Positions 2,779-33,529 of a stretch of 64,000 nucleotides of DNA are shown one piece after another. The position numbers and the translations under genes were made by a program. This DNA is from Candidatus Woesearchaeota archaeon (GTDB lineage: Archaea > Nanobdellota > Nanobdellia > Woesearchaeales > JACJVV01). The DNA is taken from the NCBI GenBank assembly GCA_020637495.1, contig JACJVV010000002.1, forward strand, positions 64,089 through 128,088, given 5' to 3'. The notes beneath the pieces are model-generated. The model saw only the letters and a list, made by a program, of their open reading frames with translations. It was not told the DNA's origin and ran no database searches. Within the stretch, counting starts at the first letter, position 1. Each line of letters opens with the position of its first letter.

Positions 2779-4038
2779 ATGAAGCAGATTTCATACAAAA
2801 CCCTTTTAAAAAAATATGCTATCAAGCAGAATATGAAGCTTTTAGAGCATGTTGGCAAAGATATTTTCAAAGAGAATGGCATTGATATCCCAGTAGGAAT
2901 TATACTATCAAAAGACTTTGATACAAAAGATCTTGGGAGATTTCTAAACACTATAAAGGATGGAAAAGTGATAATCAAAGCTCAAGTCATAGGTGGTAAG
3001 AGAAAGAAGTCAGGGCTTGTTGAGAAGGCTGAAAGTTTTGATGAAGCTATTGAGAAGATCAATGATATATTTAGCAAGAGGTACAATAATTCCCTGATCA
3101 AGAAGGTGCTTGTAGAGGAGATGCTGGATATTGAAGCAGAATATTTCCTTTCGATACTTTATGACACTGAGTCAAGGAAACCGATGATACTATTCTCGAA
3201 ATCAGGAGGAATAGATATCGAGGAGAATGAAAAGCCAGAAAGCATCACTGTTGATATACTCGAAGGATTGCAAGATAAAGACATACAAAAGCTTGTAGAG
3301 GGATCAGGTCTGGATTGTGATGCTAAGCTTGTTGAGATGATAAAAAGATCATATCTATGCTTTATAGATAATGATTGCAGAAATCTTGAGATAAACCCTA
3401 TAATCAGGACAAGCTCAGGAGATTACATTGCTGCAGATGCTAAAGTCACAATAGATGACAGCGGGATCCTTAGACAGGAGAAGTTCAAGGATATTGAAGA
3501 AGATGAATCAAGCCTGAATGATCGTGAGAAAGCTGCAAGAAGGATAGATCAGGAAGGCGATAAATCCCACAGGGGAAGTACAGGCAAGACATACATCGAC
3601 ATTGAAGGAGGGGAAATTGCTGTCCTTGCATCAGGTGGAGGTGCATCTCTTGTTGCCATGGACGCGATCATTGAAGCAGGGGGAAAGCCTGCTAATTATA
3701 CAGAATACAGTGGAAATCCATCACGAGAGAAAGTAAGGAGGTTGACCGAGCTTACATTATCTAAGGAAGGACTTAAGGGATGCCTTGTTATAGGCGGAAA
3801 AGCTAATTTCACTGATATCTTTGAGACACTAAGCGGTTTTATGGATGTGATCATGGAAATTAAGCCAAGATACCCTATAGTGATAAGACGTGCTGGTCCT
3901 CGTGACAAGGAAGCATTTGAGATGATAAGGAAGGTTGCAGATGAGCAAGGATTTGACATAACCTTGTATGGTGAGGAGATACCGATGAGCAAGGCAGCCC
4001 ATATCATGGTTCAGAAGATAGGTGATGCCAATGCATGA
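2779..4038 (+). CDS. SucC/AclB-like ATP-grasp subunit (citryl-CoA/succinyl-CoA synthetase beta-type)
   Basis: KAQVIGGKRKKSGLV, EINPI and LASGGGASLVAMDAI resemble succinyl-CoA synthetase beta and the ATP-citrate lyase small subunit. Confidence 0.65.
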   Translation: MKQISYKTLLKKYAIKQNMKLLEHVGKDIFKENGIDIPVGIILSKDFDTKDLGRFLNTIKDGKVIIKAQVIGGKRKKSGLVEKAESFDEAIEKINDIFSKRYNNSLIKKVLVEEMLDIEAEYFLSILYDTESRKPMILFSKSGGIDIEENEKPESITVDILEGLQDKDIQKLVEGSGLDCDAKLVEMIKRSYLCFIDNDCRNLEINPIIRTSSGDYIAADAKVTIDDSGILRQEKFKDIEEDESSLNDREKAARRIDQEGDKSHRGSTGKTYIDIEGGEIAVLASGGGASLVAMDAIIEAGGKPANYTEYSGNPSREKVRRLTELTLSKEGLKGCLVIGGKANFTDIFETLSGFMDVIMEIKPRYPIVIRRAGPRDKEAFEMIRKVADEQGFDITLYGEEIPMSKAAHIMVQKIGDANA

Positions 4039-4933
4039 ACCTTTCCTGACAGGAGATAGTGTTGTCATGGTGCAAGGCATTACTGGCAAGGAGGGCACAA
4101 GCTCAACTATTAGTATGATTGATTCAGGAGTCAATGTAGCATGTGGTGTGACGCCTAAGAAAGGTGGCCAGCTAGTAGAAGGTAAACCAGTCTTTGACAC
4201 AGTCAAGGAAGCTGTTGAATTCAATCAGCATATATCGATAAGCGTGATATATGTGCCTCCATTATTCACATGGAACGCTGTAAAAGAGGCAATTGATGCA
4301 GGGATAAAGAAGATAGTCATAATTGCAGAGAATGTTCCGATAAAGGACACAGCAAAGATTATAACATATGCAAGAAAGCACAATGTGGATGTTCTTGGTC
4401 CTGCTTCTGTAGGCTATCTTGATACGATGGTAGGGAAAATAGGAAGCATAGGCCATAAGGCTCCTGCCTACACAAAAGGGAATGTCGCAATCATCTCAAA
4501 GAGCGGTGGCATGTGTTCAGAGACAGCGTCGATATTATCGCAGAGCGGGTTCGGCCAGAGCATAGTAGTCGGCATAGGTGGAGACCCATTGATAGGAACA
4601 ACCTATTCAGATCTGTTTGCAATGCTCGAGAGGGATGATAGGACCGAGGCAATTGTCTTGTACTGTGAGATAGGTGGAACATATGAAGAGGAAGCTGCAA
4701 GAGCTATCAAGGAAGGAAATCTTACGAAACCTGTTATTGCTTATGTATCAGGGCTTTTTGCAGAATCACTTGGGAGAAGCGTAGCATTAGGCCATGCAGG
4801 TGCAATAATTGAGGGAGGACGGGGAACTGCAGTCTCCAAGAAGAAAGTCCTTCGTGATGCAGGAGTAATAGTAGCAGATTATCATTATGAGATCCCAGAA
4901 TTGGTGAGGAAGGTGTTGAAAGATGAGATTTAA
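4022..4933 (+). CDS. SucD/AclA-N-like CoA-binding subunit with phosphohistidine loop
   Basis: QGITGKEG, SKSGGMCSE, GIGGDP and GHAGAII are hallmarks of the succinyl-CoA ligase alpha family. Overlaps the upstream gene, consistent with an operon. Confidence 0.7.
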   Translation: MMPMHEPFLTGDSVVMVQGITGKEGTSSTISMIDSGVNVACGVTPKKGGQLVEGKPVFDTVKEAVEFNQHISISVIYVPPLFTWNAVKEAIDAGIKKIVIIAENVPIKDTAKIITYARKHNVDVLGPASVGYLDTMVGKIGSIGHKAPAYTKGNVAIISKSGGMCSETASILSQSGFGQSIVVGIGGDPLIGTTYSDLFAMLERDDRTEAIVLYCEIGGTYEEEAARAIKEGNLTKPVIAYVSGLFAESLGRSVALGHAGAIIEGGRGTAVSKKKVLRDAGVIVADYHYEIPELVRKVLKDEI

Positions 4934-5639
4934 GACTTCAGTAAGCAAGATAAAGGAGAATGACATAATAATAAGAGGAGAGAATCTATCAGGACTTGTT
5001 GAAGGTTCAAGTTTTTCAGACTCTATCTTCCTGATATTGCGAAACAGGAAACCAAGCAAGAAGGAATCACGTGTCTTCAACGCAATACTAGTCTCATGCA
5101 TTGATCATGGCATGGGGACACTCTCTGCATTGACGACGAGATTTGCTATGTCAGGCACTCATCAGCTGAATACAGCTGTCGCTGCAGGGCTTTGCTCTAT
5201 AGGGAAATTCCATGGTGGAGCAATAGAAAATTGCATGCAGCAACTTACCTCTGTAAAAGATGTCAAACAATTTGTATCTGACTCTTTATCTGCTAAGAAA
5301 GTGATATTTGGTTTCGGACACAAAGTATACAAGAAAGAAGATCCTCGTGCACAGCAGATTCTCAAGATCTGCAAAGAAGAGGGCTTCTCATCAGAATACA
5401 TTGATGCTGCTCTTGATATGGAGAAAGAGATAGAGAAGCAGAAAGGCAAGAAGCTTGTACTTAATATTGACGGTCTGATAGCTGCAATACTTCTTGAGAT
5501 GGGTTTTGCTCCTGAAGAAGGAAACGGAATATTCATAATTGCTCGTCTTCCAGGGCTTATCGCTCATGCAAATGAAGAGCGTCTGAAGGAGAAACCTGTA
5601 AGAAGATTAGAAGAAGACGAGATAGAATATGAAGGGTGA
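4923..5639 (+). CDS. Citrate-synthase-like small protein (citryl-CoA lyase-like)
   Basis: Carries the GFGHKVYK citrate-synthase signature. Its 238-aa length matches standalone citryl-CoA lyases. Overlaps the SucD-like gene. Confidence 0.6.
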   Translation: MRFKTSVSKIKENDIIIRGENLSGLVEGSSFSDSIFLILRNRKPSKKESRVFNAILVSCIDHGMGTLSALTTRFAMSGTHQLNTAVAAGLCSIGKFHGGAIENCMQQLTSVKDVKQFVSDSLSAKKVIFGFGHKVYKKEDPRAQQILKICKEEGFSSEYIDAALDMEKEIEKQKGKKLVLNIDGLIAAILLEMGFAPEEGNGIFIIARLPGLIAHANEERLKEKPVRRLEEDEIEYEG

Positions 5640-5650
5640 AAGGGATTAAT

Positions 5651-5899
5651 ATGGCAGAAAAAATCTTATCAGGGACAGTCCACAAGCTACCTGCAGATTT
5701 GAAGAAAGAGATATCATCATCAAAAGAGACTTTAGAGAAATGGAATTCTCTTACTCCATTAGGGAGGAATGAGTATATCTGTTGGATAACATCTGCAAAG
5801 AAGGATGAGACAAGGATGAAAAGGATTGATTGGATGAGAACTGACATTCTAAAGGGCAAACGCAGGCCTTGCTGTTGGCCAGGCTGCAGTCATAGGTGA
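5651..5899 (+). CDS. YdeI/OmpD-associated family small protein
   Basis: Pattern W..L.P..R.EYI.WI.SAKK.ETR..RI is typical of this family. Confidence 0.4.
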   Translation: MAEKILSGTVHKLPADLKKEISSSKETLEKWNSLTPLGRNEYICWITSAKKDETRMKRIDWMRTDILKGKRRPCCWPGCSHR

Positions 5900-5969
5900 T
5901 ATTTCACCGAAAGTATAAGTATTTGCCTAATTTATTACGAATTACGTAAGATAAGACTAACTTTTCATA

Positions 5970-5982
5970 AAGCTTTATAAGG
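5970..5982 (+). promoter_or_regulatory. TATA-like box (ctttataagg) about 28 bp upstream of the ATG at 6004
   Basis: Spacing is consistent with an archaeal promoter serving a leaderless or short-leader mRNA. Confidence 0.25.
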
Positions 5983-6003
5983 CATATCGTAATCAGCAGA
6001 AAC

Positions 6004-7908
6004 ATGGTAAAATCATCAAAGAAGATAAAATGGAAGAATCTTTTGCTGTCAAAGGAATTGATAGAACTATTCTCAAAAGCTAAATCTGCAGAAGTTATTC
6101 ATGAGAGGGCAAAGCTCCAGGACTTGTCTGTACCCTGTGATAAATCTCAGGCATATGATGTTTCTTATGAGCTTCCGAATGGCAAGACAGTCAGAGAAGC
6201 TTCTGTTGCAGATGTCAAGAATGGCATTTCAGCAAACTATATCGAGGATTACATGAGAAGACGTGACCCGGAGACGATGCTGATCGCTGATGATCTTCCA
6301 ACAGACAAGCAGACATATAAGAAGAAGTTCAAGAAAAGCTTTGATGGGCTGAGGAAAGATACATTGGACTGGATAAGAAAACAAGACCTATTGATTGTCC
6401 CGTTCATAGCTGGTAATGATGAATATGGGGTGCATTCTATTGCAATAGTCCCTAAGAATGCTGCATTCTTTGCATTCGGGATCTCTCTTCTTCAAGGCAG
6501 CGTCGATCCTGCAAAGATAAAGGATTTTGAGCCTAGATGCTTCCTCTATATTGCTCCTCCTTTCAGACACACTCATTTCGATGGCAAGCAAGCTGTCGTA
6601 CATAATAGGCTTAAGGATAATTATGAGATATTCGCATACAACCTGTATCCTGGCCCTAGTGCAAAGAAAGGGATATATGGTGTTCTGATACATTTTGGTG
6701 AGCTTGAGAATTTCCTTACGAACCATTGTGCAGTCGTTGAGGTGATAACACCTTATGGCAATAAGATAAGCATAATGCATGAAGGCGCTTCAGGCGGTGG
6801 AAAAAGTGAGATGAACCAGCATGTCCAGCGTGAGTGGGATGGTTCAATAGTTCTTGGACGAAACAAGGTTACCGGAGAGAAGAGGCAGATGACATTGCCT
6901 AGAGGATGCACGATAAATCCTGTAGTGGATGACATGGGTTCATGCTATAGCCAGATACAGAAGGATAACGGAAAGATAGGTGTAATCGACGCTGAAAGCG
7001 GATGGTTCATACGTGTCAATCACATCGAGAACTATGGCACTGATTTTGACATTGAATCAGCTACTATACATCCTAAGCAGCCTTTGCTTTTCCTAAATAT
7101 TGATGCGCAACCAGGAAGCACAGCGCTTCTCTGGGAGCATACTATCGATTCAAACAAGAAGCCATGCCCTAATCCAAGGGTCGTGATACCAAAGGAAGAC
7201 TTTCCTCAGATATCTACGAGACACACATATGTAGACGTCAGGAGTTTTGGGATAAGGACACCTCCTTGCACCAAGAAGAATCCATCTTACGGTGTTATAG
7301 GGCTTTTCCAGGTCATACCACCTGCAGTAGCGTGGCTTTGGAGGCTTGTCTCACCACGAGGTTTTGCAAATCCTAGCATAATCGATACTGAAGGAATGAG
7401 CTCTGAAGGAGTTGGCTCCTATTGGCCTTTCGCTACAGGCAAGAAGGTTGTACAGGCAAACATGCTCCTGAAGCAGATAATCGATAATCCTAAAGTGCAT
7501 TATGCATTATGCCCAGTAGGAAATCTTGGGGCATGGGAAGTGGGTTTCATGCCTGAATGGATAATGCGTGAATATCTTTCTCGACGTGGAGGGATACGTT
7601 TCATGGATTCTGATCTTTCTGAATCAAATTCAGTGTTGCTGGGTTACTCTATGAATAGGCTGGTCATAGAGGGCCAGACTATACCTGAGCATTTCCTAAA
7701 GCCTCAGCTTCAGCCAGAAGTTGGAAATGAGGCACATAAGAAAGGTTGCAGGATACTTGAGGATTATTTCAAGAGTGAACTTAAACAATTTCTCTCTCCT
7801 GAGCTTGATCCATTAGGGAAGAAGATAATAAATTTGTTCATGAAAGGCGGCAAGCTCCAGGATTTTGAGAAGCTCATTCCAGGAGAGAGCATATTCATAG
7901 ATGAATGA
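6004..7908 (+). CDS. Divergent PEP carboxykinase (ATP)-like protein (PEPCK/HprK P-loop fold)
   Basis: YPGPSAKKGIYG aligns with PckA YGGEMKKGMFS. HEGASGGGKSEM aligns with the kinase-1a loop FFGLSGTGKTTLS. DDMGSCY aligns with EGGCYAK. Confidence 0.4.
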   Translation: MVKSSKKIKWKNLLLSKELIELFSKAKSAEVIHERAKLQDLSVPCDKSQAYDVSYELPNGKTVREASVADVKNGISANYIEDYMRRRDPETMLIADDLPTDKQTYKKKFKKSFDGLRKDTLDWIRKQDLLIVPFIAGNDEYGVHSIAIVPKNAAFFAFGISLLQGSVDPAKIKDFEPRCFLYIAPPFRHTHFDGKQAVVHNRLKDNYEIFAYNLYPGPSAKKGIYGVLIHFGELENFLTNHCAVVEVITPYGNKISIMHEGASGGGKSEMNQHVQREWDGSIVLGRNKVTGEKRQMTLPRGCTINPVVDDMGSCYSQIQKDNGKIGVIDAESGWFIRVNHIENYGTDFDIESATIHPKQPLLFLNIDAQPGSTALLWEHTIDSNKKPCPNPRVVIPKEDFPQISTRHTYVDVRSFGIRTPPCTKKNPSYGVIGLFQVIPPAVAWLWRLVSPRGFANPSIIDTEGMSSEGVGSYWPFATGKKVVQANMLLKQIIDNPKVHYALCPVGNLGAWEVGFMPEWIMREYLSRRGGIRFMDSDLSESNSVLLGYSMNRLVIEGQTIPEHFLKPQLQPEVGNEAHKKGCRILEDYFKSELKQFLSPELDPLGKKIINLFMKGGKLQDFEKLIPGESIFIDE

Positions 7909-7923
7909 TTGGAAATGGATATT

Positions 7924-8199
7924 CTAAGCAGTCCTTTTTATGATATGGAATCCAAATCTTGTAGGGACTATCCCTGATACTGCACCAACTTCTAAATTAA
8001 ATGCTGCTTTCTCAAAATCAGGTACCATCTGACCTTTTCCAAATGAACCAAGGTCTCCCCCATTCTTACCTGAAGGACATGTTGAATGTTTCTTTGCTAA
8101 AGCTTCAAAGCTTTCACCATTATTTATTTTTTCAAGTAATTCTTTTGCAAAATTCTCATCTTCAACTAAAATGTGTGAAGCAGTTATCTGTTCTGACAT
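7924..8199 (-). CDS. Parvulin-type peptidyl-prolyl cis-trans isomerase (PpiC family)
   Basis: HILV...FE.LAKKHSTCPSGKNGGDLGSFGKGQMVPDFEKAAF...GFHIIK. Confidence 0.65.
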   Translation of the reverse strand: MSEQITASHILVEDENFAKELLEKINNGESFEALAKKHSTCPSGKNGGDLGSFGKGQMVPDFEKAAFNLEVGAVSGIVPTRFGFHIIKRTA

Positions 8200-8260
8200 A
8201 TTATCACCTAGCATGTCTAAAGTTAACCTTTTTTTAAAAGTTGTGTAAGAAAAAGAAGCA

Positions 8261-8271
8261 AGCCCCTGCTG
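8261..8271. repeat. Direct repeat copy A (gcccctgctgc) at the left edge of the island
   Basis: A GC-rich 11-mer in AT-rich DNA, related to the copies at 11363-11376 and 19207-19219. Confidence 0.4.
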
Positions 8272-10595
8272 CTACAAGAAATTTGTAATTATTACAAATA
8301 ATTTATAAGTTTGCGAATATCTATATCCCATATGATAAAATTATTAATTTCATTTACTCACAATCCTCGAGAAGTTTAGTAGGATTGAATTTGAAATGAG
8401 GTTGAAACAGAAATAAGTGAACTAAGATAATATTCAGAATAATGGTAAATGAAAGCTTGAAGAGATTTTGAAAGCAAAAAAATTGTCTGAGAATAAATAA
8501 AGCACCTAGTTATTTATGATGAATTTTGTAGTCCTGTATTAACCACATGTTATGACATTTGCATTTTCTTTTTTCATCTTTTACTCCATTTTTATCAACA
8601 CAATATAATCTACAAGGTAAGTTCCTTCTCTTCCAATTCCAATTGTTCAAGATTCGGCTAAAATTGCTACCAACTACTGTCATAATATCGTCAATATCAA
8701 ACTCTCAATATACGAAAATTTTTCTTCCTTTATTAAAATATAGGGATTTCATTAGATACTTTATCAGGGAAGCATTTTCTATATCTTTAAAGTATCAAAA
8801 ATAACCAGAAATGATTGTCCTCAAAATAATATTACTGGTCTGTAACTTTCTCCTCAGTGTAATTTAAAAAATGGTATAATCTATATAACCATTTTGTATT
8901 TTCTCCTACTTGAACCCACCCAGCTTGTTTCTTTCAATATCTCTTTGTCAATAGTAAGTTTTGAATTCTTCATCAATTTTGGCTTAAATCAAAACATTTG
9001 CACCTACTTGAAATTATAATCCCATATTGCTCATCAGTTGACTTGTAGGTATTTCCCCCATATGACAAGCAATTATGAATTTATTGCCAAGTAAGTTATA
9101 AACCTCTTCCTTACATTCATTAGGACAATAGCTTTACTTTTCAAGTATCTTCTCTTTGTTAATTGTAGGCATCTTGATTCCCTAAATTACCTATTTCATT
9201 AATATTTATCTCTGAACAACCTATTTTGTTAGAATTACAGGAGGGTAAGTATTATTATACAATTTTACAATTTGCTTCATTTTTGTTACTCTATATTTAT
9301 ATTTATAAAATGATTAAGCATCTTTTTGCAGGATAAAGGATTGCCAATGCAAGAATCCTAAATAGAGCCACATTTCAGGTATTATTCTATTACAACTAAA
9401 GGTAAGAAAATAATACAATAGTTGTCTATTCACTTGTCTTTTTTTAAGATTCTTCTTTAAGTTTTTTATTTAACCTTCTGTAATAATTTTCGTAATCTCA
9501 TTTGTTCTTCTAGGTAATTCACTATTGTTTAATAATTACTAAAGAAACAAAATGCTATAAATCAACAACTATTAGAATGTAAAAAGTAGAATAGAAAATC
9601 CCCTATCAATCAATCCCCTGATTAAAGATATGATAAACACGATCTCTGATTTTATTATGATAATATATAAGAGACAATGATTTTGCATACTTGATTTATT
9701 TTCCTTTCTGAATTTTTCAACAATTGTTTTGGCAGGTTTATATTAATAATAATCTTCACAATAAGATACCATTAGAGTGAAGCTTAGATTTACATACTGA
9801 ACAATTACCCATATGAATACTTAAATTGATTTTAGCAAATATAAATCTTTCTAGAATTATAAGCTTCCTTGTCTAGAAACTCCAAGCTTTTGTATTATAG
9901 GGTGATGACATGTAGAGATAGAATATCTAAAAATAAAAAGAAGTCCTTATTTTGGTAGTATGCAAAAATTAATTTCACCGGTTATCATTCTAGTCTTCAT
10001 TTTTTCTATTAGTTCTAATGAGTTTTTCTTACCACATCTATAGATTTTACATACTAGTATTGTCTAAATGTTATATTCTCTTTATTATGCATATTTCTTA
10101 TATGATTTTATTGAAATAGATCCAAATATGAATTATACTGTTTTATACATGATTTAACTTTTTTTTATAGGTTCTATTATCATATAGTCATATTATACAT
10201 TGTAAAAAAATAATAACTCAGAGATATCATTAACAATTGGATTTGGAATAGCTATAATTTGCAGTAATTAGGTTCATTAAGAGTTTTTTACAAAAAAGAA
10301 GATATAAATTTGATAGATATAATTTTGGTCGTACAGTAGATGCAATTACAGGATTCTTTGTAGGGTTAATCTTTATTCTATGTTTATCAATAGTCACTAA
10401 AGGATACATGCTTACTAATTTAGATAAGGAAATTCGTTTTTTATTTATAGTCTGAGCTTAATCTTTGGTATTTGGATTTTCAGGAAAGTGGATATACATA
10501 TTTGTGAGTATGAAAAGAAGAGATTATGATTTGCTTTTGACCGAGATAATGGAGTGTTCAGCTATTCTAAATTCCCTAATCTATTGTCCAGTAAT

Positions 10596-10835
10596 TTAGT
10601 ACATTCTATCAGCCATCTTCTCTTTGTCCAGATAATTTCTATTACCCACTGTAACAGGAACACGACCTTTGGTGAAATCAGCTACTCCTGCAGTATGCTT
10701 CAGTTCAAACATCGGCTGTAAAAACCACTTACGTATATACTTAGCCCAACCACTCTGCTTGTATCTGTTAGCTAAGAACCCTTTGTAATCTGCTATCAGT
10801 AAACACTTCAGGCACAAATACATAGTCCCTGGCAA
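10596..10835 (-). pseudogene. Gene fragment, possibly TnpB-N-terminal-like or other mobile-element protein
   Basis: 79-aa ORF with non-random composition (SGWAKYIRKWFLQPMFELKHTAGVADFTKGRVPV). Translation of the flanks continues but is broken by stops. Confidence 0.2.
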
Positions 10836-11362
10836 GTAAGCATGTAATAAACACTCTTTTTGTATTTCTGAATAAGTTTAGCAATACTTTCTGTATCCTT
10901 GCTTTTGACAACCTTGATTGTATTAGCATTGTTCATGTAATAGACTAATCTAGTAATCCTTACCCTGAATATACTAGTCCTATGGTATTGAACAACTGTC
11001 TATCCTTTTGCTTTACATTTGCAAACTCTTGTTAATTCAGAATCAGTAGGAGTATAAAAATGTCACAGCCATCTTTAGGTTTCTTTGTACTCTTCTTATC
11101 TTAGTTAACTCTGCATTATTTCTTCATTATCTATATGCTTCTTCTAGGTAATTGCTATGCCTCTTACTGTTTTGAAGAATTGGTCATTAGCATATTTCGA
11201 ACGACATTTCCTTTTATTCTTCATAGTGCTGAAATAATACACACTTTTGTTAGTTTTAGTAAAATTGCATAACTTTAAAGGTAGCTCTTGAGAAGTTTAG
11301 GCCTTAACCCAGTCGACAATGCATTGTACCTTTTACTCAAACACAAACTCAGAACTAAAAAA

Positions 11363-11376
11363 GAGCCCCTGCTGGA
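11363..11376. repeat. Direct repeat copy B (gagcccctgctgga), internal to the island
   Basis: Shares the exact 10-mer ccctgctgga with copy C. Confidence 0.4.
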
Positions 11377-11859
11377 GTGAGTGATATTGGTACATATCCC
11401 CTTTTATTACTTTTAGGAATAAAAAGGTCTCTAAAATAGTTATTTAAAACAATTATGTATATAACAGATTAACTTTATTAAGCTCGTAGCTGACTCTTAT
11501 GGATCAGATACGCAAAGCTATCGTGAATGATTCACCCTCAACAGTGTATCATGTCTAATTGGTATTTATATATTTTACAATTGATCTTATCACGATAAAG
11601 CTACAATTTCATTGGAGTGTGTAAATGGAAAATTATGAGCTTACTTTGATTTGTATATAATTGTTGTGAATTGTTGGCGGTATAGCCACAATGACGTGTA
11701 AAAGTTATTCAAATAAGCAAAAGCAGAGATAAGTATGGGATGTCTTTGACATCCCTACACCTCTAACATAATCATGCCATTGACAGCTATAAGCAAAAAA
11801 CATATATATATGTATGATTTATAAATAATATAAATAGGAAAAGAGGGATAATGGATCAA

Positions 11860-12700
11860 ATTTCAATAATGAGACTTATATGAAGATTAAATTAGATAGA
11901 AGAACTTTATATAATCTTCCATACAAAGATAAAATTATTAAAAGAATTATTGAACAAATAGATCTTCAAGATACTGAAATTAATGAAAAACACATTAGGT
12001 GTTCTTTTTGAGAACCTAACAAGAAACGAAGAGAAAAGAATATAATAATTTTATACCCCAAAGATATTGTTAATTATATGATTGAGTATTTAGACATAAA
12101 AAAGGATCAAATATTCTTAGACCCAATATGTGATGGGGTATTTCTTGTTTCAATATACAATTATCTTAAAAAGACTAATCAGGATATATTGAACAGTTTA
12201 TATGGAAAAGGATCTTAATAACTACAAGAATAACAAGACTTAATTTATGGTTATCAGATAAAAGAAACTGTGAAACATTAAAACATTGAGAAGAATATTT
12301 TAGTTGGGAATACTTTCAATATCTGATAAGAAATTCTAATTCTAAAGCTATTAATTGGAAGAAAGAATTCGCTATAATACAAAATGGTGGCTTTACTATA
12401 TTATTGAAATCCACCTTTATGTTACATTAAAAAAAATGAAGATTTTAAAGTAGATGAAGGTAATTTCTAAGGAAATTATTACTGACAAATAAATGTTGCT
12501 TCATTAGTAATAATGAGACTGTTTGAAGTATTAAAAGATGGTGAATGTTGGCATTTGTTTTACCAAAACAATGTTATGAGTTGTTAATCTGTTATTTAAA
12601 TTAAGAAGGCTTATCCTTAATAATTCAAGGATAACATTGTTGATTTAGGAACTGGATTTAAAGGAGTGAGGGTGAACAAATAATATTATTCCTAAAAAAT
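11860..12700 (+). pseudogene. Decayed gamma-class N6-adenine DNA methyltransferase (Type IIG/Eco57I-like)
   Basis: Remnant motif I LDPICDGVFL (about 12117-12146) and ARITRLNLWL (compare AKLRLWL). LPKQCYELL...DLGTGFKGVRVNQ matches the post-NPPY VLPKSFL...GVF..V.V region. Multiple in-frame stops and frameshifts. Confidence 0.5.
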
Positions 12701-13339
12701 AATAATATAAAAAATAATTTGGCTAACAAATACACTTGTAACTGTTATTAAAGATAAAAAATAACCAATTAAGAATCAAAAAAGTTTTTATGTAAAGCAA
12801 GCAATTAACATTTCATAAATATAATAATTTCTTATTATTTGATAGAGAAGAATATTATAATATTTTAGAAAAATTTCTAACCAAGGAACGCCTTTTAAGT
12901 GAATATGCTGAAATATTTAGGTGATATCGCTAAAAAAGGAAATTATAATTAAAGCGACCAAGGAAATACCATTAATAACTGGCAAGATATATCAAAGTTT
13001 TCATGTATTAGTAAGATCTAATATTAATGAAAGTTTAAGAATATGATAAAAATAACTCGTTTAAATTCAGATAAAGATAATCTTCTACAAAATATATTCT
13101 CCTTGAGGCTGGTATAATATCAGTAGATAATAATAAATTATATCACAAAATGATACTGTAACAAATATAGTATTGAAAATGAATCATAGATCTTAAATAT
13201 CTATTCGGATTGTTAAATTTAAAATTAATTAACTTTTTAATGTATGCATATATAACAAATCAAACTTAACTAAGCATACTGATGGTGTATATCTTGTAAA
13301 ATACCTATTATGGTTAATAAGCAATTAAAAAACGAATTA

Positions 13340-13800
13340 CATCTATAGACTGGCAAGTAACTCACCTGATTTTAAATTAATATTATCAAAGTTAGATACA
13401 GAAGTTTATAAGTTATATATTACTGATTCTGAAATACAATTAATTGAAGAAGGAGTAAGAGAAATATTATCAAAGAAAAGTATGTGGTAGATATGGCAGA
13501 AAGAATGAACAATTTAACTGGTAAAGAAATGGCTCCAAAATCATTTAGTATTTGAGAGAAATAAGAGTATCAATGAAGAGAATAAAACTAAAACATTCCT
13601 GCAATGTTCCTTTCAATGTTATGTAAAAAAATTAATTAATATTTATACAAAAGAAATTGGTGATGTCATTTTAGATCCTTTTATGGGTGTAGGTCAATAA
13701 TTTATTGTCAAAAGAATTCATAAAAGGGTGGGAATATCAAAAAGAATTCTTTGAGATTAAGTTAAAAGAGATTAGGTCAACAAAATTGCTCTAAAAAAAT
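13340..13800 (+). pseudogene. Decayed beta-class DNA methyltransferase (motif IV SPDF, C-terminal motif I DPFMGVG)
   Basis: IYRLASNSPDF (compare DLIFTSPPY), then IGDVILDPFMGVGQ*FIVKRIHKRVGISKRIL (compare PGDLVLDPFAGSGTT..AAKKLGRRFIGIE). TAG, TGA and TAA stops all occur in-frame. Confidence 0.5.
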
Positions 13801-16800
13801 CTAATGAAAATTAAGGCCAGAAATTTATTTAGAGACCTAAAAGTATTAAAAAAATAAGATCAGAGAGTGTTGATCTGTGTATAAATTTCCACCCATGACA
13901 TATTAAACCAACGTAGAAGTGTTGATAATAAAGATTCTATTAATTATTCTAATCAATAAAAAGATATAGGAAATACACTTTATAATTTATTTTTAGATAA
14001 CTAAAAAGAGATATATTCAGTAGTTTTCAGAGTTCAAAACCAAATAAAAGATGCTGTGTTGTGGTACGGATATAAGAGAAAGACAATTTTCCCATTACAT
14101 ATAGATATTACTAAATTAATGTAAAGAAATTGCCTTTGAACTTGAAGAATTTGTAATCTGGGGATGACAACACATGAGTATAATAATATGAAGACATTAG
14201 GATATCCATGGGTATTGCCCAATAAAGCAATATATGTGTTTATTGGAAAGATCTAAATAAATTAATTTTATAAAGCATCGAGGATTACAAAATGTAGAAT
14301 ATTGATTTAGTTTTGTTTACTTGTATGATTGTTTGCAAGGTGAAATTATTAGAGGAAAACTCTAAACAGAAATTATACTAGTATTCCACACAAATTTAGA
14401 GACAGAAGGAGAAAATACACAACAATCCATTAAATCAAGTTTATTAGATAATAAATAAGATTAAAGAATTAATTGGTATAGGGATCATGCTATGATGTAG
14501 AAAAATAAAAATGTTGTTGTATATTGCTCCTGAACCAAATGGCGATTTTCTAATGGAAGTATACCTTCCATTAGTTGGTCTTAAAATCAGTTGGCGGATA
14601 TTAGGATACCTAATAAATATTTGAAGTAGATCAAAATGTAAATTAGAATTCTTATATAGGCTTTTGAGATGTTACAGTCACATAAGAAAAGTAATTGTAG
14701 ATTTCTTAAGATTATGAAATAGAGTTTATATAGAAATAATGGATAATTGGGATATGGTTATAGATATAGTAAATTTGTTAAAATCTTTAGATGTAATTAG
14801 TACTATAAGATGGGCACATCCTAATTTTGTAAGATCCAAAAGCATTCAATATCATAAAGGCAACTCTAACTATATGACATCAAATCAAAATATGGGCGGA
14901 TGAGTATGAAAATAGGTTTTAATATAGAACATAAAAATAGACTCTTGAAAAATATTCTCTATAAATAAAAAGAATGGATGATTATTATAGGATCAAATCA
15001 GCTCAAGCTTAAAAACATTGATTGCGTAAAAGGGAATTATGCTAAAAGAATTGGACATATTGAATTATCACATCATTTATTTTTTTGAAGGAAAAGCAGA
15101 ATAAAATCAAAGAAATCCATCCTTGATGAAGCAAATCATAAAATACATCCTAAAATAAGAGTAAACATTTTAATAATTGGACAGAAATTGCTTGGAGTTA
15201 GGTTATCATGGAGTAAAGAAGAAGAAAAATTATATCCTTTATAGAAGATTGGTTAAAGAAATATTTAACTTGAAAAGTATAAAGCGTTATGATAATAAAT
15301 AAATTTCATGCAAGTTCTCGAAGATATTTAGATGTGTGTTATGAATATAATATTTTATGTGAGGCTGCGATTGGTCTAAAATAAAAAGTAGATATTGCAG
15401 AATTTCTTACAAAAAGGAGATTCATATAAATTAGCATTTGTTGAAGTCAAAGATACTGGACTTAACTCCCTAAGGATTTAGGGTCAATTATGGGGTTATA
15501 CACAATTAATTGATCCTATTGAATCTTTTCAATTACATCCAAGGGATTAGGTACTTATCAAAATTATTTAACATTTGTAATAGAGGAGACCTTTAAGATA
15601 TGGAATAAAGATTCAATAAACATATGAAATTAGCCAAATGACCATAGTAGAAATACCATCATGTGGGATTCAATAATCCCAAAACTATGATTCATCTGTT
15701 CTGTTGTTACCTGATGGTTGTTTCTGGAAAAAATCCCGAGCGAATCTCATATATTAAATTTAGTAGTAGTGAAGAACATTGGACTGAACTGTCATAATTT
15801 AAATAAAGAGATTTATAGCCAGGCACAACTGAACTAGCAGATCAGGATAGTGATCTAATGAAGGAATCTGTTCTTGGAGGGACAACGAAGGTTTAAAGCT
15901 TTGAAAATCTATTCTGGAAAAGTTATCTAATCTAACTTAAACATTTTCTCATAAGTTTTTGAACAATCTCTAAAATCTTCAATATTCCATCTTTGATGTC
16001 AACTGATGATCTTGGTGAATAAGTCATATCTAATGTCATAATAATATTTAATTTTAGACATATCTTTCTTTGAGATTGTAACATACTTTTTTACTTGTAT
16101 GAACTTTATGACGTGCACTAAAATATCCAAAGTTGTTATCACTATAATGCACATTACTTTATTTACCAAGAATCTTTAAATGCAATTTCTAACGTACTAT
16201 CTATAAGTAACACTATTAAAGCAACTCTATTTTTTGCTGTCAAACTCTTCTTATAAATACATCTGTGGCAACTATTCCAATCAACTAACTTTTGTCCGGG
16301 TTGCTTTTGATACAATTTTTCTTATTAAATGATGATACTTTTATCCTCATATCTTTAATTTTGATTAGCAGGCGGTAGGTATAACTTCTTACAGTTCCAA
16401 ATTCATTCGTTCGCTAATCCTTTCCTTTTATCATACTTATGATTCCATCATCCCATTTTCCTTGTGTAAAGAACGAGAGAAACCTTGGCATATGGGTTTT
16501 ACAACCTCTATTAATTTAGGTTGATATTTTCATTCTAAATATCTTCTTATTATAATTAATAGCCAATTTACTACTATTCCCAAGGCATTAATTGAGCACT
16601 TCCTTTCATTGATACTAAAACCCTCACTAATGAAAAATGTTAGTGTGGTTAATTTGCCAAATTAGTTCCAAAACAACATCAAATGTCTTTACAGCACGAT
16701 CTATAAGTCTACACATAATAAAATATAATCATACTGCCCACCAAAGGGCTTGTTTCATTAGATAGTCCCCTTAATACTAACTTCTATCTTATTTTTTCCA

Positions 16801-17998
16801 TCTAATTTTACTGTGCCAGTATATTCTTTGGTTTATAATTAGTGGAAATGACCATTGTAGGTGATGGGCATTATTTTGTTTCCATTCACATTAATTTCTA
16901 TTTTATTATTCAAGAAATTAAAGTATACCCTACCAACACATGTTTTTCAAGGTATTTTACAGAACTGTCTTCAATTTTAAACCTTAATTTATTTAGAAAT
17001 ATTTGTGTTGAACCTCAATAATATCATCAGTTTCTATAATAAGGGAGATGCCAACATCATTTCTTAACCAAGAGTCGTCAAATCTAATAAGATAAGTTTA
17101 TTATTTTTATATCTGATATTATTTTACTTCTTGAGAAAGTGTACCACTGCTCTTTTTGTACCAACACCAAAAGTCCAATGACTTCTTTTTCTGGATCATT
17201 TGCTATCTCCTAATTGATTAGAACTTTAGATTTTCCTTCACACCACCAGCATTATCACTAACTTTAATTATTTGTTGATCCAATGATGTTTATATCTATT
17301 CTCATCTCTTTTGTTTTAGATGATTGTAAACACCAGTTATCAATGCTATTATCGATAAGTTCTTGCAAATTGTTTATAAATCATAATCAGAAATAATTGA
17401 TAAATAATCTTTTGCAGAGTCCCATCAAGTTTTTTACAAATTTCCCCTAATTTATTAGTGAAATACGATGTAAATTAATATATTTTACGTAAAAATCAAG
17501 GGTTTATCATATTTTTGTTAGAAAATGCGATAGCTATTTTCGTTATAATAAAAAAATAAGGTAATAATTGTAGTGGCTACAAATATATCACGCTGACGAT
17601 AAAACCCATCAAAATGGCCAATTTTTAACGAAGCGCTAAAGGTATTCAAACCTTGTTAAACTATTTTGATAGGTTAATTCAAAAGAAAATATTTTATGAG
17701 ATTCTGAAATTACGCTTAAACCTTGTTTCTATATTACTATACTGATTACATATTATTATTGTATTAACTATTATTATATGTTAATATGGCCATACTTGAT
17801 AAGGAGCACTCAGACAAATTATATTCAAATGGACAAAATCTAACTTCTTTAGTAATTTCTTTAAAGACCTCTTTTTATTTTTCCTTTTACTTTTGAGTGT
17901 ATAATATTCTATATTTTTCAGTCTCAATCACATCTGTTATAGTAAAGTCCTTAATGCCTGCCTTTCCAGAATACTCATGATATTTACCAGCTTTATCT

Positions 17999-18700
17999 TC
18001 AAATATTGTTTATCAAGTCTGGGTGTGTTTCTTCCATATTAGCAAGTCTATCTTCGTTCTTCTTATTCTGTAAATATTTCGCTTTTGCCTCAGCAGTAAG
18101 TGGAATCCACACTGCTGACAGTAATCGCATCCTTCTATATTGTTGAATGAGCATTTGTTCACAACAGTATTTGTAACTTTTAGCTTTTGTTTCATGGCCA
18201 TATATCTTTACGTAGTCTATCACATCATCTTTTAACACCTAATCTACCATAGGTCTCTTGCATAATGCTTACTGAATGTCCATGCCTTTAGCTGCAAAAT
18301 TGTAGGGATAATTCTCAACTTTATCCAAATAACAACTATGTCTTAAATTGTAGGCTCAAAGGTTTCTTGAGTTTAGCCTTGTTCTTCAAAATAGATAATC
18401 TTTTCTGATAGCTTGATAGTTTAATGTTTTTTATGCTATCTTTTCTTCTTCATTTTAGTTTTATTTGTTTTGTTCAAACCATAATAGATCAAGAGGTTTT
18501 TAGAAGGATGCTGGATTATACCATCTTTTGTATATAAGGCGCACACCGACACAGGCTACGCTTTCTTTTCCCCTGGTTCTTCCTTTCTTTACTTTGATAT
18601 GAACTATATGTTCATCAAAGGATATGCAGCCAAGTGTTAAATCTACAAATTCTCCCACGTAGTCCTGCATCTAATTGTAGGCCATAACTATGGTTTTTTG
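17999..18700 (-). pseudogene. Decayed IS200/IS605-family TnpB/OrfB-like gene
   Basis: Minus-strand translation GLQLDAGLRGRICRFNTW (compare GIDLGLKDFAVLSDGTKI) and a C-terminal zinc-finger remnant CDYCQQCGF, with about 20 in-frame stops and frameshifts. Confidence 0.4.
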
Positions 18701-19189
18701 TTTGAAGATTAGTAGTTTTCGTAATTAACTTTTCCTTTCTTCCAAGAGATCACATCTTCTTCATTTAAGTCTCTCATACAGTCTTTTTCTCCTTTGGTGA
18801 CTTTAATATCCTTGAACTTTAGAGTTCATATCATTTAACCATCTGAAATAATCTTGAACATTTATCAGTCTTATATGAAGAATTATTTGGTATTTTGTCT
18901 GTATTTTAGCAAATATTTGTTTATGGTATCTCATTTACCATCTCTTTCTTTATGTCCTACTATGTCTTAAAGAATTTGAATCTATCTAAAAAAAGATAGA
19001 AAAGTCTTGAAGGTTCATTTGAATTTCTATATGAAACTAAAATTTCTTAATGGTTTTATTTTCATTTGTAATATCATTAGAACTAAAAAGTCTTTTTTCG
19101 TAAGCTTCACAGCGCTGGGGAAAAAATCTGTAGTGGGGTATTAAATACTATTAAAATTAGGTAATATATAAATATTTTGATGGGGATAT

Positions 19190-19490
19190 GTACTTCAAAG
19201 GGTATTGCTCCCTGCTGGATGTGCGCCCAGGACCTCTACCCTTTAATTTGTAAGTTCATTTTCGTTTCCCACTGACAATTCTGAGCTTGTCTGTAAACTC
19301 ACAAAGTACCAAGGTAGTGCAATGGCTACTATGCTACAGGGCATTTGTTTTATAGTCTGCCAGACTTATGTTCATTGATTTGCATTTCAGGGTTTAGCAA
19401 AAGGCTGCTACCATACAGGGCACTGTTATGCTTCTGGAGTAAGGACACATGAAATAAGTCCTGTACTACAGGCATAATGGAAATATTTTC
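19190..19490. ncRNA. Candidate structured non-coding RNA (GC-rich island with three imperfect repeats of ctac.a..cagggca). Identity unknown
   Basis: No ORF in any frame. GC is clearly higher than in the flanks. Island repeat copy C lies at its left end (19207-19219). Confidence 0.15.
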
Positions 19491-19533
19491 CTGAACCATA
19501 TATAAACATTACCCCACATAACAATATAAATGG

Positions 19534-20289
19534 ATGAATAACTTCATCAATATGCAATCGCATAACAGCAACTTGAGTTTCATGAAGAGATCAGAGAAGC
19601 TCAAAGGCACAGCAATAATAGTCTCAAAATATAAGGGATATGATAACCTGTTTCTTGGTCTTTATTATTCAAACGATATTAGTATTGTCGATAGGATGAA
19701 ATCAACACCTATTATGAAGAGGAAGCTGGAATTGGCAAAAGAATCCTTACAAGCGCAGAACCCTGGTGTCAATATCAATGTCAGCATAGCCTCAATCGGT
19801 GTCTGGCTGACAGAATCAGCAGCATATTCAGCCAATGAGGATATAATATTTACAGGTCTTTCCTCAGATAGCCCTAAAGACATCTATGCAGAGAGCTATG
19901 TCCATCTCGCAAGATACTTGAAGATGATGGACCTTAATGATCTTCAGAGAGTTGAATTCCCTATATTGGAGACTCATGACACATTCTACTCAAACTTTAT
20001 TGGAGATCTTCCAAGATACTTATCGCACGTCTTCATCTCACCTATGAAATATGCAATGACGTTAGATGATGGACAGGTGATGTTCGATAGCATATCAAGA
20101 GAATTGATGAGATTTACAGATGCAGAGCCTGTCAATAGATACGCAATGGAATTATCCGATGTTATCCGAAATGACCCTTCGAATATAAGGCTTGAACTCC
20201 AATATATACAACTGATAGATTCACTATATACTGAGAATTATGAGCGAGCTGCCAAGTGCAGGGATGCAATAGCCATTCTTAATGGATGA
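19534..20289 (+). CDS. Hypothetical protein
   Basis: 251-aa intact ORF with no motif recognised. Confidence 0.35.
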   Translation: MNNFINMQSHNSNLSFMKRSEKLKGTAIIVSKYKGYDNLFLGLYYSNDISIVDRMKSTPIMKRKLELAKESLQAQNPGVNINVSIASIGVWLTESAAYSANEDIIFTGLSSDSPKDIYAESYVHLARYLKMMDLNDLQRVEFPILETHDTFYSNFIGDLPRYLSHVFISPMKYAMTLDDGQVMFDSISRELMRFTDAEPVNRYAMELSDVIRNDPSNIRLELQYIQLIDSLYTENYERAAKCRDAIAILNG

Positions 20290-33009: not shown

Positions 33010-33328
33010 TATCTAAAGGGACATCTATCTTTATTTAGCCATCACAAGATTTAAATACTGGATAATACTATCTTGATGGCAATGGCTGGACATTTGATAA
33101 AAAAGCCATATGAGGAAAAAAGACAAAACTGTCGACTGATTCTAACGATTCACTTGAACTAGCTATATGACGACAGATCCTATTTCTATGAGGTCACGAT
33201 GAGCGAACTGAAGAAGAAGATATCATCTATTGAATGGGACATAGAGCATATGGAAGATAAAGGCATGAGGGCTCGTAAGATAGAGCTTCTCAAGACTCTA
33301 AAAGAACAGCTCAGACTGGAGGAGCAAG

Positions 33329-33529
33329 ATGGGAAGAATTAAGACTTTGCAGATAAAGAGGGCAACACACAATATCCTTAAGAAGCATGATGACAAGTTC
33401 TCTGATAATTTTGAGCAGAACAAGCAGACATTGCTTTCAATGTATAATATCCAATCTAAAAAGATAAGGAATGTTATTGCAGGATATATCACAAGGATAG
33501 TAAGAAAGGGAAAAAATCTTGATTTATGA
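33329..33529 (+). CDS. rps17e: Ribosomal protein S17e
   Basis: MGRIKTLQIKRA...SKKIRNVIAGYITR matches the eS17 consensus MGRVRTKTVKKA...SKKLRNKIAGYVT. Confidence 0.8.
   Translation: MGRIKTLQIKRATHNILKKHDDKFSDNFEQNKQTLLSMYNIQSKKIRNVIAGYITRIVRKGKNLDL

What the first reader, a model, noticed from the sequence alone, without database searches (positions are those of the whole stretch)
8240..19530. ~11 kb ORF-free, extra-AT-rich gene graveyard inside an otherwise compact genome
Everywhere else in the window genes are packed at about 1 per kb, often overlapping. From about 8.24 to 19.53 kb the track's few short ORFs look spurious, so no ORF of 60 aa or more is supportable. Hand translation reveals unmistakable but wrecked homologues: a gamma-class N6-adenine methyltransferase, a beta-class methyltransferase and a TnpB/OrfB-like gene. 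All three stop codons (TAG, TGA, TAA) occur in-frame, so this is pseudogene decay rather than code reassignment. The content points to a dead restriction-modification or mobile-element island. Keeping so much junk is unusual in a streamlined archaeal genome, so the locus may be recent or may serve some other role, for example as a regulatory or recombination hotspot.
Basis: seen in the sequence. Interest (0 to 1): 0.7.

Follow-up and report, generated by a model that had tools for sequence, protein, structure and literature searches.

The report
Uncorrected long-read patch, not gene graveyard
The 11 kb stretch with no genes is real in this record, but it is most likely an ordinary integrated mobile element (two integrases and a restriction-modification cassette) whose sequence was never error-corrected and is peppered with single-base insertions and deletions, not a graveyard of decayed genes.

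Summary
Window 8240-19530 has no open frame of 90 codons or more except one at 10599-10877. GC is 0.28 against 0.39 in the flanks, and all three stop codons occur in all six frames. The content is also largely as read: an archaeal SSV-type integrase, a gamma-class and a beta-class DNA methyltransferase. It further holds two more cassette genes and probably a second tyrosine recombinase. TnpB is not supported.

The four cassette genes are collinear, full length and correctly spaced compared with intact cassettes on two DPANN contigs. The damage is not substitution decay. It is about 4-5 mostly single-base indels per 100 nt. They are evenly spread and not tied to homopolymers, there are no large deletions, and the mismatch level (0.29) barely exceeds that between two intact homologues (0.275). 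Correcting frameshifts, even without using homology, restores the proteins.

The flanks match short-read contigs almost exactly, and one such contig stops 128 nt inside the island. The record is an NCBI Woesearchaeota MAG. It is very probably HK-STAS-Nano-4, a 0.01%-abundance genome built with Flye plus Unicycler from Nanopore and Illumina reads.

Best explanation (about 0.8): an unpolished Nanopore-derived bridge over a real AT-rich mobile element. True pseudogene decay: about 0.15.

The parts
7924..8214 (-). Left flanking host gene, a PPIC-type peptidyl-prolyl isomerase. It is intact.
   Evidence: Pfam Rotamase E=3.9e-25. It is carried on the short-read Logan contig L014.
8215..8342 (.). First 128 nt beyond the PPIase gene. 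This is the only part of the AT-rich interval confirmed by an independent short-read contig.
   Evidence: L014 (SRR12358675) matches window 5660-8342 with 1 mismatch and 0 gaps, and ends at 8342.
8343..19530 (.). AT-rich, ORF-free interval. The proposal is that it is uncorrected long-read (Nanopore) sequence bridging two short-read-accurate flanks. Underneath lies an integrated mobile element.
   Evidence: Searches show it is ORF-free and AT-rich. Searches show dense 1-nt indels throughout.
8343..10598 (-). Unidentified coding remains. The strand is inferred from purine skew and residual codon periodicity.
   Evidence: GC and AT skew are negative and frame signals favour the minus strand. Pfam, PHROGs and a frameshift-corrected Pfam scan found nothing.
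10599..11293 (-). Archaeal SSV-type integrase gene (Pfam Phage_integr_3). It is full length but carries 9-16 frameshifts. Its C-terminal 79 codons are still open, and NCBI aa of them MCB9359074.1.
   Evidence: Pfam E=2.3e-9. PHROG integrase 4e-10. Homologues P0003-P0015. tblastn splits across two frames. Frameshift-aware alignment covers residues 1-225 of 239 in P0005. NCBI name.
11886..13487 (+). Gamma-class N6-adenine DNA methyltransferase (N6_Mtase/Eco57I/TaqI_C/MmeI_Mtase family of about 566 aa). It is full length, with 39-41 in-frame stops in the nominal frame and 16-37 frameshifts.
   Evidence: establish homology. Searches give the frameshift-aware alignment: identity to the family consensus rises from 0.34 to 0.51-0.53 and stops fall to 1-10.
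13484..14244 (+). Beta-class N6/N4 DNA methyltransferase (about 266-269 aa), with 11-17 frameshifts.
   Evidence: Pfam N6_N4_Mtase E=0.0028 on the raw frame. It is collinear with L018 2465-3265 and L021 11695-12504. The intact homologue scores as a type II MTase.
14292..15209 (+). Third cassette gene (302-304 aa, no known family; possibly the nuclease), with 10-27 frameshifts.
   Evidence: tblastn to the L021 and L018 homologues reaches 67% identity in one 39-aa segment, E=7e-36. Frameshift-aware alignment covers residues 1-301. The intact protein has no Pfam, PADLOC or NCBIfam match.
15212..15687 (+). Fourth cassette gene (160 aa, no known family), with 7-12 frameshifts.
   Evidence: After frameshift correction it is 58-59% identical to L018 and L021.
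15690..18030 (-). Unidentified coding remains. The strand is inferred from skew.
   Evidence: Skew. No hit in Pfam, PDB or the 5.8e9-protein search.
18037..19083 (-). Probable second integrase, a tyrosine recombinase of the Phage_integrase type.
   Evidence: Frameshift-aware alignment to the integrases that sit beside the intact cassettes scores 101 (L018, 409 aa) and 85 (L021, 267 aa). Four shuffles of the same DNA per query give 37-45. Pfam Phage_integrase E=0.014 on the homology-blind corrected peptide. The evidence is moderate.
19534..20289 (+). Right flanking host gene (251 aa, no family). It is intact.

Best explanation
The interval is a sequence-quality artefact laid over a real but ordinary feature.

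The real feature is an AT-rich integrated mobile element in a Woesearchaeales (DPANN) chromosome. It carries an SSV-type integrase, a four-gene type II restriction-modification cassette with two methyltransferases, a probable second tyrosine recombinase, and about 4.5 kb of unidentified genes.

The artefact is that in this record the element is represented by uncorrected Nanopore-derived sequence. The proposed sequence of events is as follows. The genome was assembled at very low coverage by a hybrid pipeline. The short-read graph broke just inside the AT-rich element. The assembler bridged the gap with a long-read consensus of about single-read quality. Short-read polishing did not repair it.

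The resulting load is roughly 4-5% single-base indels plus a few percent substitutions. That load destroys every reading frame, so no ORF survives and stops of all three kinds appear 'in frame'.

Shown here: the indel-dominated, evenly spread lesion pattern; full-length collinear genes; accurate flanks. Inferred: the assembly history, and that the element is intact in the cell.
For: 1. Gene architecture. All four cassette genes and the integrase are present full length, in order, with gene borders and overlaps preserved. The island cassette is 97-98% of the length of the intact L018 cassette.

2. Frameshift correction, gamma-MTase. Frameshift-aware alignment raises the gamma-MTase score from 272 to 565-834. 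Identity to the family consensus rises from 0.34 to 0.50-0.53. Stops fall from 39 to 1-10. The path uses 16-37 frameshifts, and the intact control needs none.

3. Homology-blind correction. A frameshift corrector that uses no homology raises the family-HMM score from 178 to 325 bits. It needs 64 shifts in the island cassette, against 4 in the intact L021 cassette and 3 in a host gene.

4. Nucleotide alignment. Island versus L021 cassette gives mismatch 0.290 and 5.3 gap events per 100 nt. Of 195 gap events, 122 are 1 nt. Bases are missing in the island in 115 events and extra in 80. The two intact homologues compared with each other give mismatch 0.275 and 0.8 gap events per 100 nt. The excess is therefore almost entirely indels.

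5. Distribution of indels. They are evenly spread (dispersion 0.59). They are not enriched at homopolymers: 0.42 of sites against a null of 0.41. A slippage simulation gives 0.55-0.64 and a uniform-error simulation 0.44-0.51.

6. Simulation. About 3-6% substitutions plus about 5% indels reproduces all alignment statistics. From my own knowledge, this is the profile of a 2018-2019 Nanopore raw read.

7. Flanks. They equal short-read Logan contigs, with 1 mismatch and 0 gaps in 2683 nt and in 2886 nt. The left contig ends 128 nt inside the island.

8. Provenance. The record is an NCBI 'Candidatus Woesearchaeota archaeon' MAG with a 323,473-bp contig. Of the five archaeal MAGs of Liu et al. 2021 (PMC8518188), only HK-STAS-Nano-4 has statistics that allow a 323,473-bp contig: 6 contigs, 1,322,844 bp, N50 712,229, N90 220,068, GC 0.378. 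Its relative abundance is 0.0103%. The workflow is Flye --nano-raw followed by per-bin Unicycler hybrid assembly, used 'to bridge the gaps'.

9. GC content. The island's low GC matches that of the cassette's natural DPANN hosts (L021 0.285, L001 0.27). No decay towards AT is needed to explain it.
Against: No reads or quality values could be inspected, so the assembly history is inferred.

The link of this record to PRJNA648801 / HK-STAS-Nano-4 rests on contig-size arithmetic, GC, taxon name and dates. It does not rest on an accession match.

After frameshift correction, only 73-82% of columns that are at least 90% conserved in the family are retained. Real family members retain a median of 98% and a minimum of 83%. 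Some substitution-type damage therefore exists. Simulations fit 10% substitutions plus 2% indels nearly as well as 5% plus 5%.

Island GC (0.283) is also close to the host's four-fold-site GC (0.26), as neutral decay would predict.

It is not explained why short reads that reach 128 nt into the island did not assemble or polish the rest.
Confidence: 0.8

Rival explanations
1. Genuine pseudogene decay. An integrated element with an integrase and a restriction-modification cassette lost function long ago. It has drifted neutrally in this lineage, accumulating AT-biased substitutions and small indels, and has not been deleted.
For: Island GC 0.283 is close to host four-fold-site GC 0.26. Conserved residues are lost even after frameshift correction, with 73-82% retained. 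A simulation with 10% substitutions plus 2-3% indels also fits the protein-level statistics. The few inferable single-step changes lean from GC to AT. PGAP found only a 38-aa gene here.
Against: Mismatches to L021 (0.29) barely exceed those between two intact homologues (0.275), while indels are about 6-7 times higher. That gives an indel-to-excess-substitution ratio near or above 1. From my knowledge of mutation-accumulation and pseudogene studies, natural spectra have substitutions several-fold in excess of indels.

Indels are not at homopolymers. There are no large deletions, and all gene borders are kept across 4.5 kb. Both points are unexpected under the deletion bias of prokaryotic genomes, especially in a 1.3-Mb DPANN genome.

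The low GC is equally explained by the donor lineage.
Confidence: 0.15
2. Alternative decoding. The island would be translated under a different genetic code, stop-codon readthrough or programmed frameshifting, so the genes would be functional as written.
For: Many stops lie in a frame that still aligns along a whole gene.
Against: Stops of all three kinds align with at least a dozen different residues. All six frames carry stops at near-random density. Dozens of irregularly placed +1 and -1 shifts per gene would be needed, with no shared slippery motif.
Confidence: 0.01
3. Targeted hypermutation of foreign DNA, deaminase-driven or RIP-like, produced the stops and the AT-richness quickly.
For: AT enrichment confined to a foreign island. 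Many stops.
Against: Changes at conserved positions are not transition-dominated: 12 transitions against 33 transversions in the raw frame and about 5 against 9 in clean codons. Stops replace residues such as Gly, Lys and Glu, which need transversions. The main lesion is indels, not substitutions.
Confidence: 0.01
4. A non-coding structural locus: a CRISPR array, an rRNA or ncRNA cluster, or a centromere-like or origin-like AT-rich region.
For: It is long, ORF-free and AT-rich.
Against: There are no repeat families, tandem arrays, tRNAs or Rfam matches. About 6 kb is demonstrably homologous to protein-coding genes.
Confidence: 0.01

Closest known systems
Indel-rich, unpolished long-read segments in Nanopore or hybrid assemblies. 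These are known to create apparent frameshifted 'pseudogenes'. This is my own knowledge of the literature; the source paper itself notes the higher error rate of long-read contigs (PMC8518188).
   Same: Dense, mostly 1-nt indels with a deletion excess, evenly spread. Total error is about 8-10%. Flanks are accurate to short-read level. Frames are restored by frameshift correction. The genome was built at very low coverage by Flye plus Unicycler.
   Different: The patch is unusually long (11.2 kb) and coincides exactly with one AT-rich mobile element. Read-level proof is not available here.
Type II restriction-modification cassettes with two methyltransferases, as in type IIS systems of the Alw26I/Eco31I/Esp3I kind.
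   Same: A gamma-class adenine MTase is followed by an overlapping beta-class N6/N4 MTase and two further co-oriented genes. The intact homologue partly matches TIGR02987 (Alw26I family) and PADLOC MTase_II models.
   Different: Scores are far below the curated cut-offs (87 against 353 bits). The 302-aa and 160-aa partners match no known nuclease family. Specificity and cleavage are unknown.
Integrated elements of archaea bearing SSV-type (Pfam PF16795) or tyrosine-recombinase integrases.
   Same: A PF16795 integrase and a probable PF00589 integrase lie in a low-GC island between intact host genes. The same cassette sits beside integrases in L018 and L021.
   Different: No tRNA target and no convincing att repeats were found. 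The only candidate is a CCCTGCTG core at 8264, 11367 and 19210, and that motif is also frequent elsewhere in the window.
Pseudogene-rich 'graveyards' of reductive genomes such as Mycobacterium leprae and Rickettsia (my own knowledge).
   Same: Recognisable homologues with stops and frameshifts and no intact ORFs.
   Different: Here the damage is confined to one island. It is indel-dominated, not tied to homopolymers, and lacks deletions. The rest of the genome is compact and intact.

Membership tests
Uncorrected long-read (Nanopore) sequence in an assembly | Errors are dominated by short indels, with deletions outnumbering insertions, rather than by substitutions. | tested here: met
   5.3 gap events per 100 nt against 0.8 in the control. 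122 of 195 events are 1 nt. 115 are missing bases and 80 extra. Mismatch is 0.29 against 0.275.
Uncorrected long-read (Nanopore) sequence in an assembly | Errors are spread along the whole segment, and reading frames are restored by frameshift correction. | tested here: met
   Dispersion is 0.59 across 32 bins. HMM score rises from 178 to 325 bits after homology-blind correction. The island cassette needs 64 shifts and intact controls 3-4.
Uncorrected long-read (Nanopore) sequence in an assembly | Adjacent sequence is of short-read accuracy, with a boundary at a break in the short-read graph. | tested here: met
   L014 and L020 each show 1 mismatch and 0 gaps. L014 ends at 8342.
Uncorrected long-read (Nanopore) sequence in an assembly | The record was produced from long reads. 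| tested here: inconclusive
   It is an NCBI Woesearchaeota MAG with a 323,473-bp contig. Its statistics fit only HK-STAS-Nano-4 from a Flye plus Unicycler Nanopore/Illumina study. No accession link was verified.
Uncorrected long-read (Nanopore) sequence in an assembly | Reads disagree with the consensus, or short-read depth is low, over the segment. | not testable with these tools
Neutral pseudogene decay | Substitutions clearly outnumber indels. | tested here: not met
   Excess mismatch is about 1.5 percentage points. Excess indels are about 4.5 per 100 nt.
Neutral pseudogene decay | Small indels are concentrated in homopolymer or simple-repeat runs. | tested here: not met
   0.42 of frameshift sites lie near a run of 4 or more, against a null of 0.41. 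The slippage simulation gives 0.55-0.64.
Neutral pseudogene decay | Deletion bias, with larger deletions and loss of gene parts. | tested here: not met
   All five alignable genes are full length, borders are preserved, and cassette length is 97-98% of the intact cassette.
Neutral pseudogene decay | Composition drifts to the host's neutral-site composition. | tested here: inconclusive
   The island is 0.283 and host GC4 is 0.26. But intact cassettes in other hosts are 0.28-0.30.
Stop-codon reassignment | Each reassigned stop aligns consistently with one amino acid, and one stop codon remains in use. | tested here: not met
   Stops align with K, E, I, D, G, N, F, T, S, Y and L. All three kinds are present in all frames.
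TnpB/OrfB (IS200/IS605) gene | A detectable OrfB_IS605 / OrfB_Zn_ribbon (RuvC plus zinc-ribbon) domain. | tested here: not met
   No Pfam hit in any frame, in a hand-spliced composite, or in the frameshift-corrected peptide. No PDB or large-database hit. A recalled consensus scores within the shuffled range.
SSV-type archaeal integrase (Pfam PF16795) | A match to the catalytic C-terminal domain and a full-length alignment to family members. | tested here: met
   E=2.3e-9. Homologues reach 62% identity over 48 aa. Frameshift-aware alignment covers residues 1-225 of 239.
Type II restriction-modification system | Methyltransferase(s) plus a cognate restriction endonuclease. | tested here: inconclusive
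   Two MTases are identified. The 302-aa and 160-aa partners match no nuclease family.

The most novel reading that the evidence does not exclude
The deposited sequence is accurate. On that reading, a DPANN archaeon really carries an 11-kb integrated element inactivated by an indel-dominated, homopolymer-independent mutational process of about 4-5 single-base indels per 100 nt with few substitutions and no deletions. This would be a previously undescribed way of silencing or scrambling foreign DNA, with the scrambled DNA then retained.
Probability: 0.06. Interest if true: 0.8.

Novelty: not a real feature. Interest (0 to 1): 0.1.

Why it matters
Taken at face value, the finding would challenge the deletion bias and streamlining of DPANN genomes. 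The evidence says it should not be taken at face value.

The practical value is curation. About 11 kb of this public MAG contig is unpolished, and it hides a probably intact mobile element with two integrases and a two-methyltransferase restriction-modification cassette. Gene-content, pseudogene or coding-density statistics drawn from this record would be misled.

The case also shows a general trap for sequence-only scans of hybrid assemblies. An ORF-free, AT-rich patch with 'wrecked homologues' can be an error patch. A nucleotide alignment to an intact homologue separates the two readings quickly, because it shows whether the excess damage is indels or mismatches.

Tried and rejected
- CRISPR array, tandem repeats, tRNA and Rfam: nothing found.
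- Empty-site or intact-island comparison in related genomes: the closest relative of the flanking DUF4914 gene is only 73% identical and not syntenic. Metagenome contigs gave nothing close.
- Exact-protein look-ups for island ORFs and the right-flank genes: not on record.
- Single-frame Pfam and PHROGs scans of X-masked translations: only two weak or short hits. In hindsight this is because in-frame segments are only about 20 codons long.
- My first reading of 'substitution-only, indel-free decay', taken from a single-frame tblastn HSP: overturned by the frameshift-aware alignment.
- Deaminase or RIP-like hypermutation: rejected on the substitution spectrum.
- TnpB, tested with a hand-spliced composite, a PDB search, a 5.8e9-protein search and a recalled consensus: all negative.
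- att sites: a CCCTGCTG core occurs at 8264, 11367 and 19210, but also five times elsewhere in the window, and the contexts align poorly.
- Homopolymer-length distribution as a Nanopore signature: inconclusive. The island is at random expectation, while intact relatives are enriched in long runs.
- Literature search for the run accession: no hit.

Full report
**Observation.**
Between 8240 and 19530 there are only five ORFs of 60 aa or more, the longest 81 aa, in a window otherwise packed with genes. No stop-to-stop frame of 90 codons or more exists in 8272-10598 or in 10878-19521. Outside the island the largest such gap is 659 nt. GC falls to 0.24-0.32 from 0.35-0.43. TAA, TAG and TGA occur in every frame at close to random density. 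The interval holds no CRISPR array, tandem repeat, tRNA or Rfam family. GC and AT skew switch sign in three blocks: minus 8-11 kb, plus 12-16 kb, minus 16-19 kb. A weak codon periodicity persists. The DNA therefore is, or was, coding.

**Content: first hits.**
Single-frame scans of X-masked translations gave only an archaeal SSV-type integrase fragment (Pfam PF16795 E=2.3e-9; PHROG integrase 4e-10) and a weak N6_N4_Mtase hit. A search of 5.8e9 proteins with the hand-read remnants found one protein, P0001. It is a 568-aa gamma-class MTase (E=2.5e-15).

**Content: intact cassettes elsewhere.**
P0001's contig (L018) carries an intact four-gene cassette: the gamma MTase, an overlapping beta-class MTase of 266 aa, a 304-aa protein and a 160-aa protein. 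An integrase lies nearby. A second contig (L021, a DPANN genome with GC 0.285) has the same cassette next to a tyrosine recombinase.

**Content: mapping onto the island.**
The island at 11886-15687 is collinear with both cassettes, gene for gene. The PF16795 integrase is full length at 10599-11293 on the minus strand. A probable second integrase lies at about 18037-19083 on the minus strand. Frameshift-aware alignment there scores 101 and 85, against 37-45 for shuffled DNA, and Pfam gives E=0.014 on a corrected peptide. No test supported TnpB.

**Nature of the damage: an early misreading.**
A single tblastn HSP aligns the whole gamma MTase in one frame with about 40 stops. I first read this as substitution-only decay. 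That reading was wrong.

**Nature of the damage: frameshift-aware alignment.**
I wrote a frameshift-aware profile alignment, and it shows something else. The score rises from 272 to 565-834. Identity to the family consensus rises from 0.34 to 0.50-0.53. Stops fall from 39 to 1-10. The path uses 16-37 frameshifts in 1.6 kb. The intact control needs none. The other three cassette genes and the integrase behave the same way, with 7-27 frameshifts each. Starts, ends and gene overlaps are preserved.

**Nature of the damage: homology-blind correction.**
A Viterbi corrector that uses only codon usage and stops raises the family-HMM score from 178 to 325 bits. It needs 64 shifts in the island cassette, against 4 in the intact L021 cassette.

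**The decisive comparison is at nucleotide level.**
- Island versus L021 cassette: mismatch 0.290 and 5.3 gap events per 100 nt. Of 195 events, 122 are 1 nt. Bases are missing in 115 events and extra in 80.
- The two intact homologues against each other: mismatch 0.275 and 0.8 gap events per 100 nt.

The excess damage is thus almost entirely short indels. They are evenly distributed (dispersion 0.59). They show no preference for homopolymer runs: 0.42 of sites against a null of 0.41. A slippage simulation gives 0.55-0.64 and a uniform simulation 0.44-0.51. Simulated damage of about 3-6% substitutions plus about 5% indels reproduces the protein-level statistics. So does 10% plus 2%, so the protein level alone does not discriminate. 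The nucleotide alignment favours the indel-rich end.

**Why this is not natural decay.**
From established knowledge of mutation-accumulation and pseudogene studies, natural decay has four expected features:
- substitutions several-fold in excess of indels;
- small indels concentrated in runs;
- a deletion bias that removes gene parts;
- in some lineages, a GC-to-AT substitution bias.

The first three were tested and not met. The island's low GC need not reflect decay, because intact copies of the cassette in their DPANN hosts have GC 0.28-0.30.

Code reassignment is excluded because stops align with a dozen different residues. Deaminase-like hypermutation is excluded by a substitution spectrum poor in transitions and by the dominance of indels.

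**Provenance.**
Exact look-ups identify the record as an NCBI MAG, 'Candidatus Woesearchaeota archaeon'. Its proteins are MCB9359072-MCB9359080, its locus tags H6503_04035 and H6503_04065 were returned for two of them, and the contig is 323,473 bp. PGAP called only a 38-aa gene in the island.

Short-read Logan contigs from SRR12358675 and SRR12358676 match the flanks with 1 mismatch and no gaps over 2683 nt and over 2886 nt. The left contig stops 128 nt inside the island.

Liu et al. 2021 (PMC8518188) recovered five Nanoarchaeota MAGs from activated sludge. They used Flye --nano-raw followed by per-bin Unicycler hybrid assembly 'to bridge the gaps'. Of the five, only HK-STAS-Nano-4 has statistics that allow a 323,473-bp contig. 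It is assigned to Woesearchaeales and has 6 contigs, 1,322,844 bp, N50 712,229, N90 220,068, GC 0.378 and relative abundance 0.0103%. This link is an inference and was not verified by accession. If it is correct, long-read depth was only a few-fold, and a bridge of near single-read quality is plausible.

**Conclusion.**
The ORF-free interval is real in the record. Most likely (about 0.8) it is an unpolished Nanopore-derived bridge across a genuine AT-rich integrated element. That element carries two integrases and a two-methyltransferase type II restriction-modification cassette, and it is probably intact in the organism.

True pseudogene decay remains possible (about 0.15). The reasons are that some conserved residues are lost even after correction (73-82% retained, against at least 83% in real family members), and that no reads could be inspected.

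The decisive test is read mapping and re-polishing of 8.3-19.5 kb.

As a biological finding the interest is low. As a curation note it is useful.

Noticed in passing
L018:778-4660 and L021:10001-13893 (homologous to window 11886-15687): A conserved mobile four-gene cassette occurs in DPANN contigs: a gamma N6A MTase of about 566 aa, an overlapping beta N6/N4 MTase of about 268 aa, and proteins of about 303 aa and 160 aa. The last two match no Pfam, PADLOC or NCBIfam family. The cassette always sits near an integrase. About 90 family members of the large MTase exist in metagenomes. The two unknown proteins are candidate novel restriction components.
   Followed up: partly
window 2779-5639 (+): Three consecutive genes resemble a split citrate-cleavage system of the citryl-CoA synthetase/lyase or ATP-citrate-lyase type. 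They are ATP-grasp_2+Citrate_bind (419 aa), CoA_binding+Ligase_CoA (303 aa) and a Citrate_synt C-terminal domain (238 aa). This is notable in a DPANN (Woesearchaeales) genome.
   Followed up: no
window 50012-51139 (+): An archaeal protein matches Pfam MATCAP (microtubule-associated tyrosine carboxypeptidase) over nearly the full profile, E=8e-56.
   Followed up: no
window 33804-33937 (-): Rfam finds a 134-nt tRNA, presumably intron-containing. ARAGORN reported no tRNA in the window. It lies next to a 653-nt ORF-poor stretch at 33007-33659.
   Followed up: no
window 8264, 11367, 19210 (+), also 26197, 41060, 42246, 45260, 52295: The octamer CCCTGCTG occurs 8 times against about 1 expected. Three copies lie on the same strand near the island's left end, just upstream of the first integrase, and near the right end. 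They might be degenerate att cores or simply a genome-wide over-represented word.
   Followed up: partly
whole window: CpG is strongly depleted: odds ratio 0.45 in the flanks and 0.34 in the island. Long A/T runs are under-represented in the host flanks relative to random expectation.
   Followed up: no
window 55667-56325: A 659-nt stretch has no open frame of 90 codons or more and normal GC (0.36). Its content was not examined.
   Followed up: no
window 6004-7908 (+): The DUF4914 protein (weak PEPCK_ATP similarity) has its closest relatives, apart from one Woesearchaeota MAG at 73% identity, in Anaerolineae and Bacteroidales at about 50% identity. This suggests inter-domain transfer.
   Followed up: no
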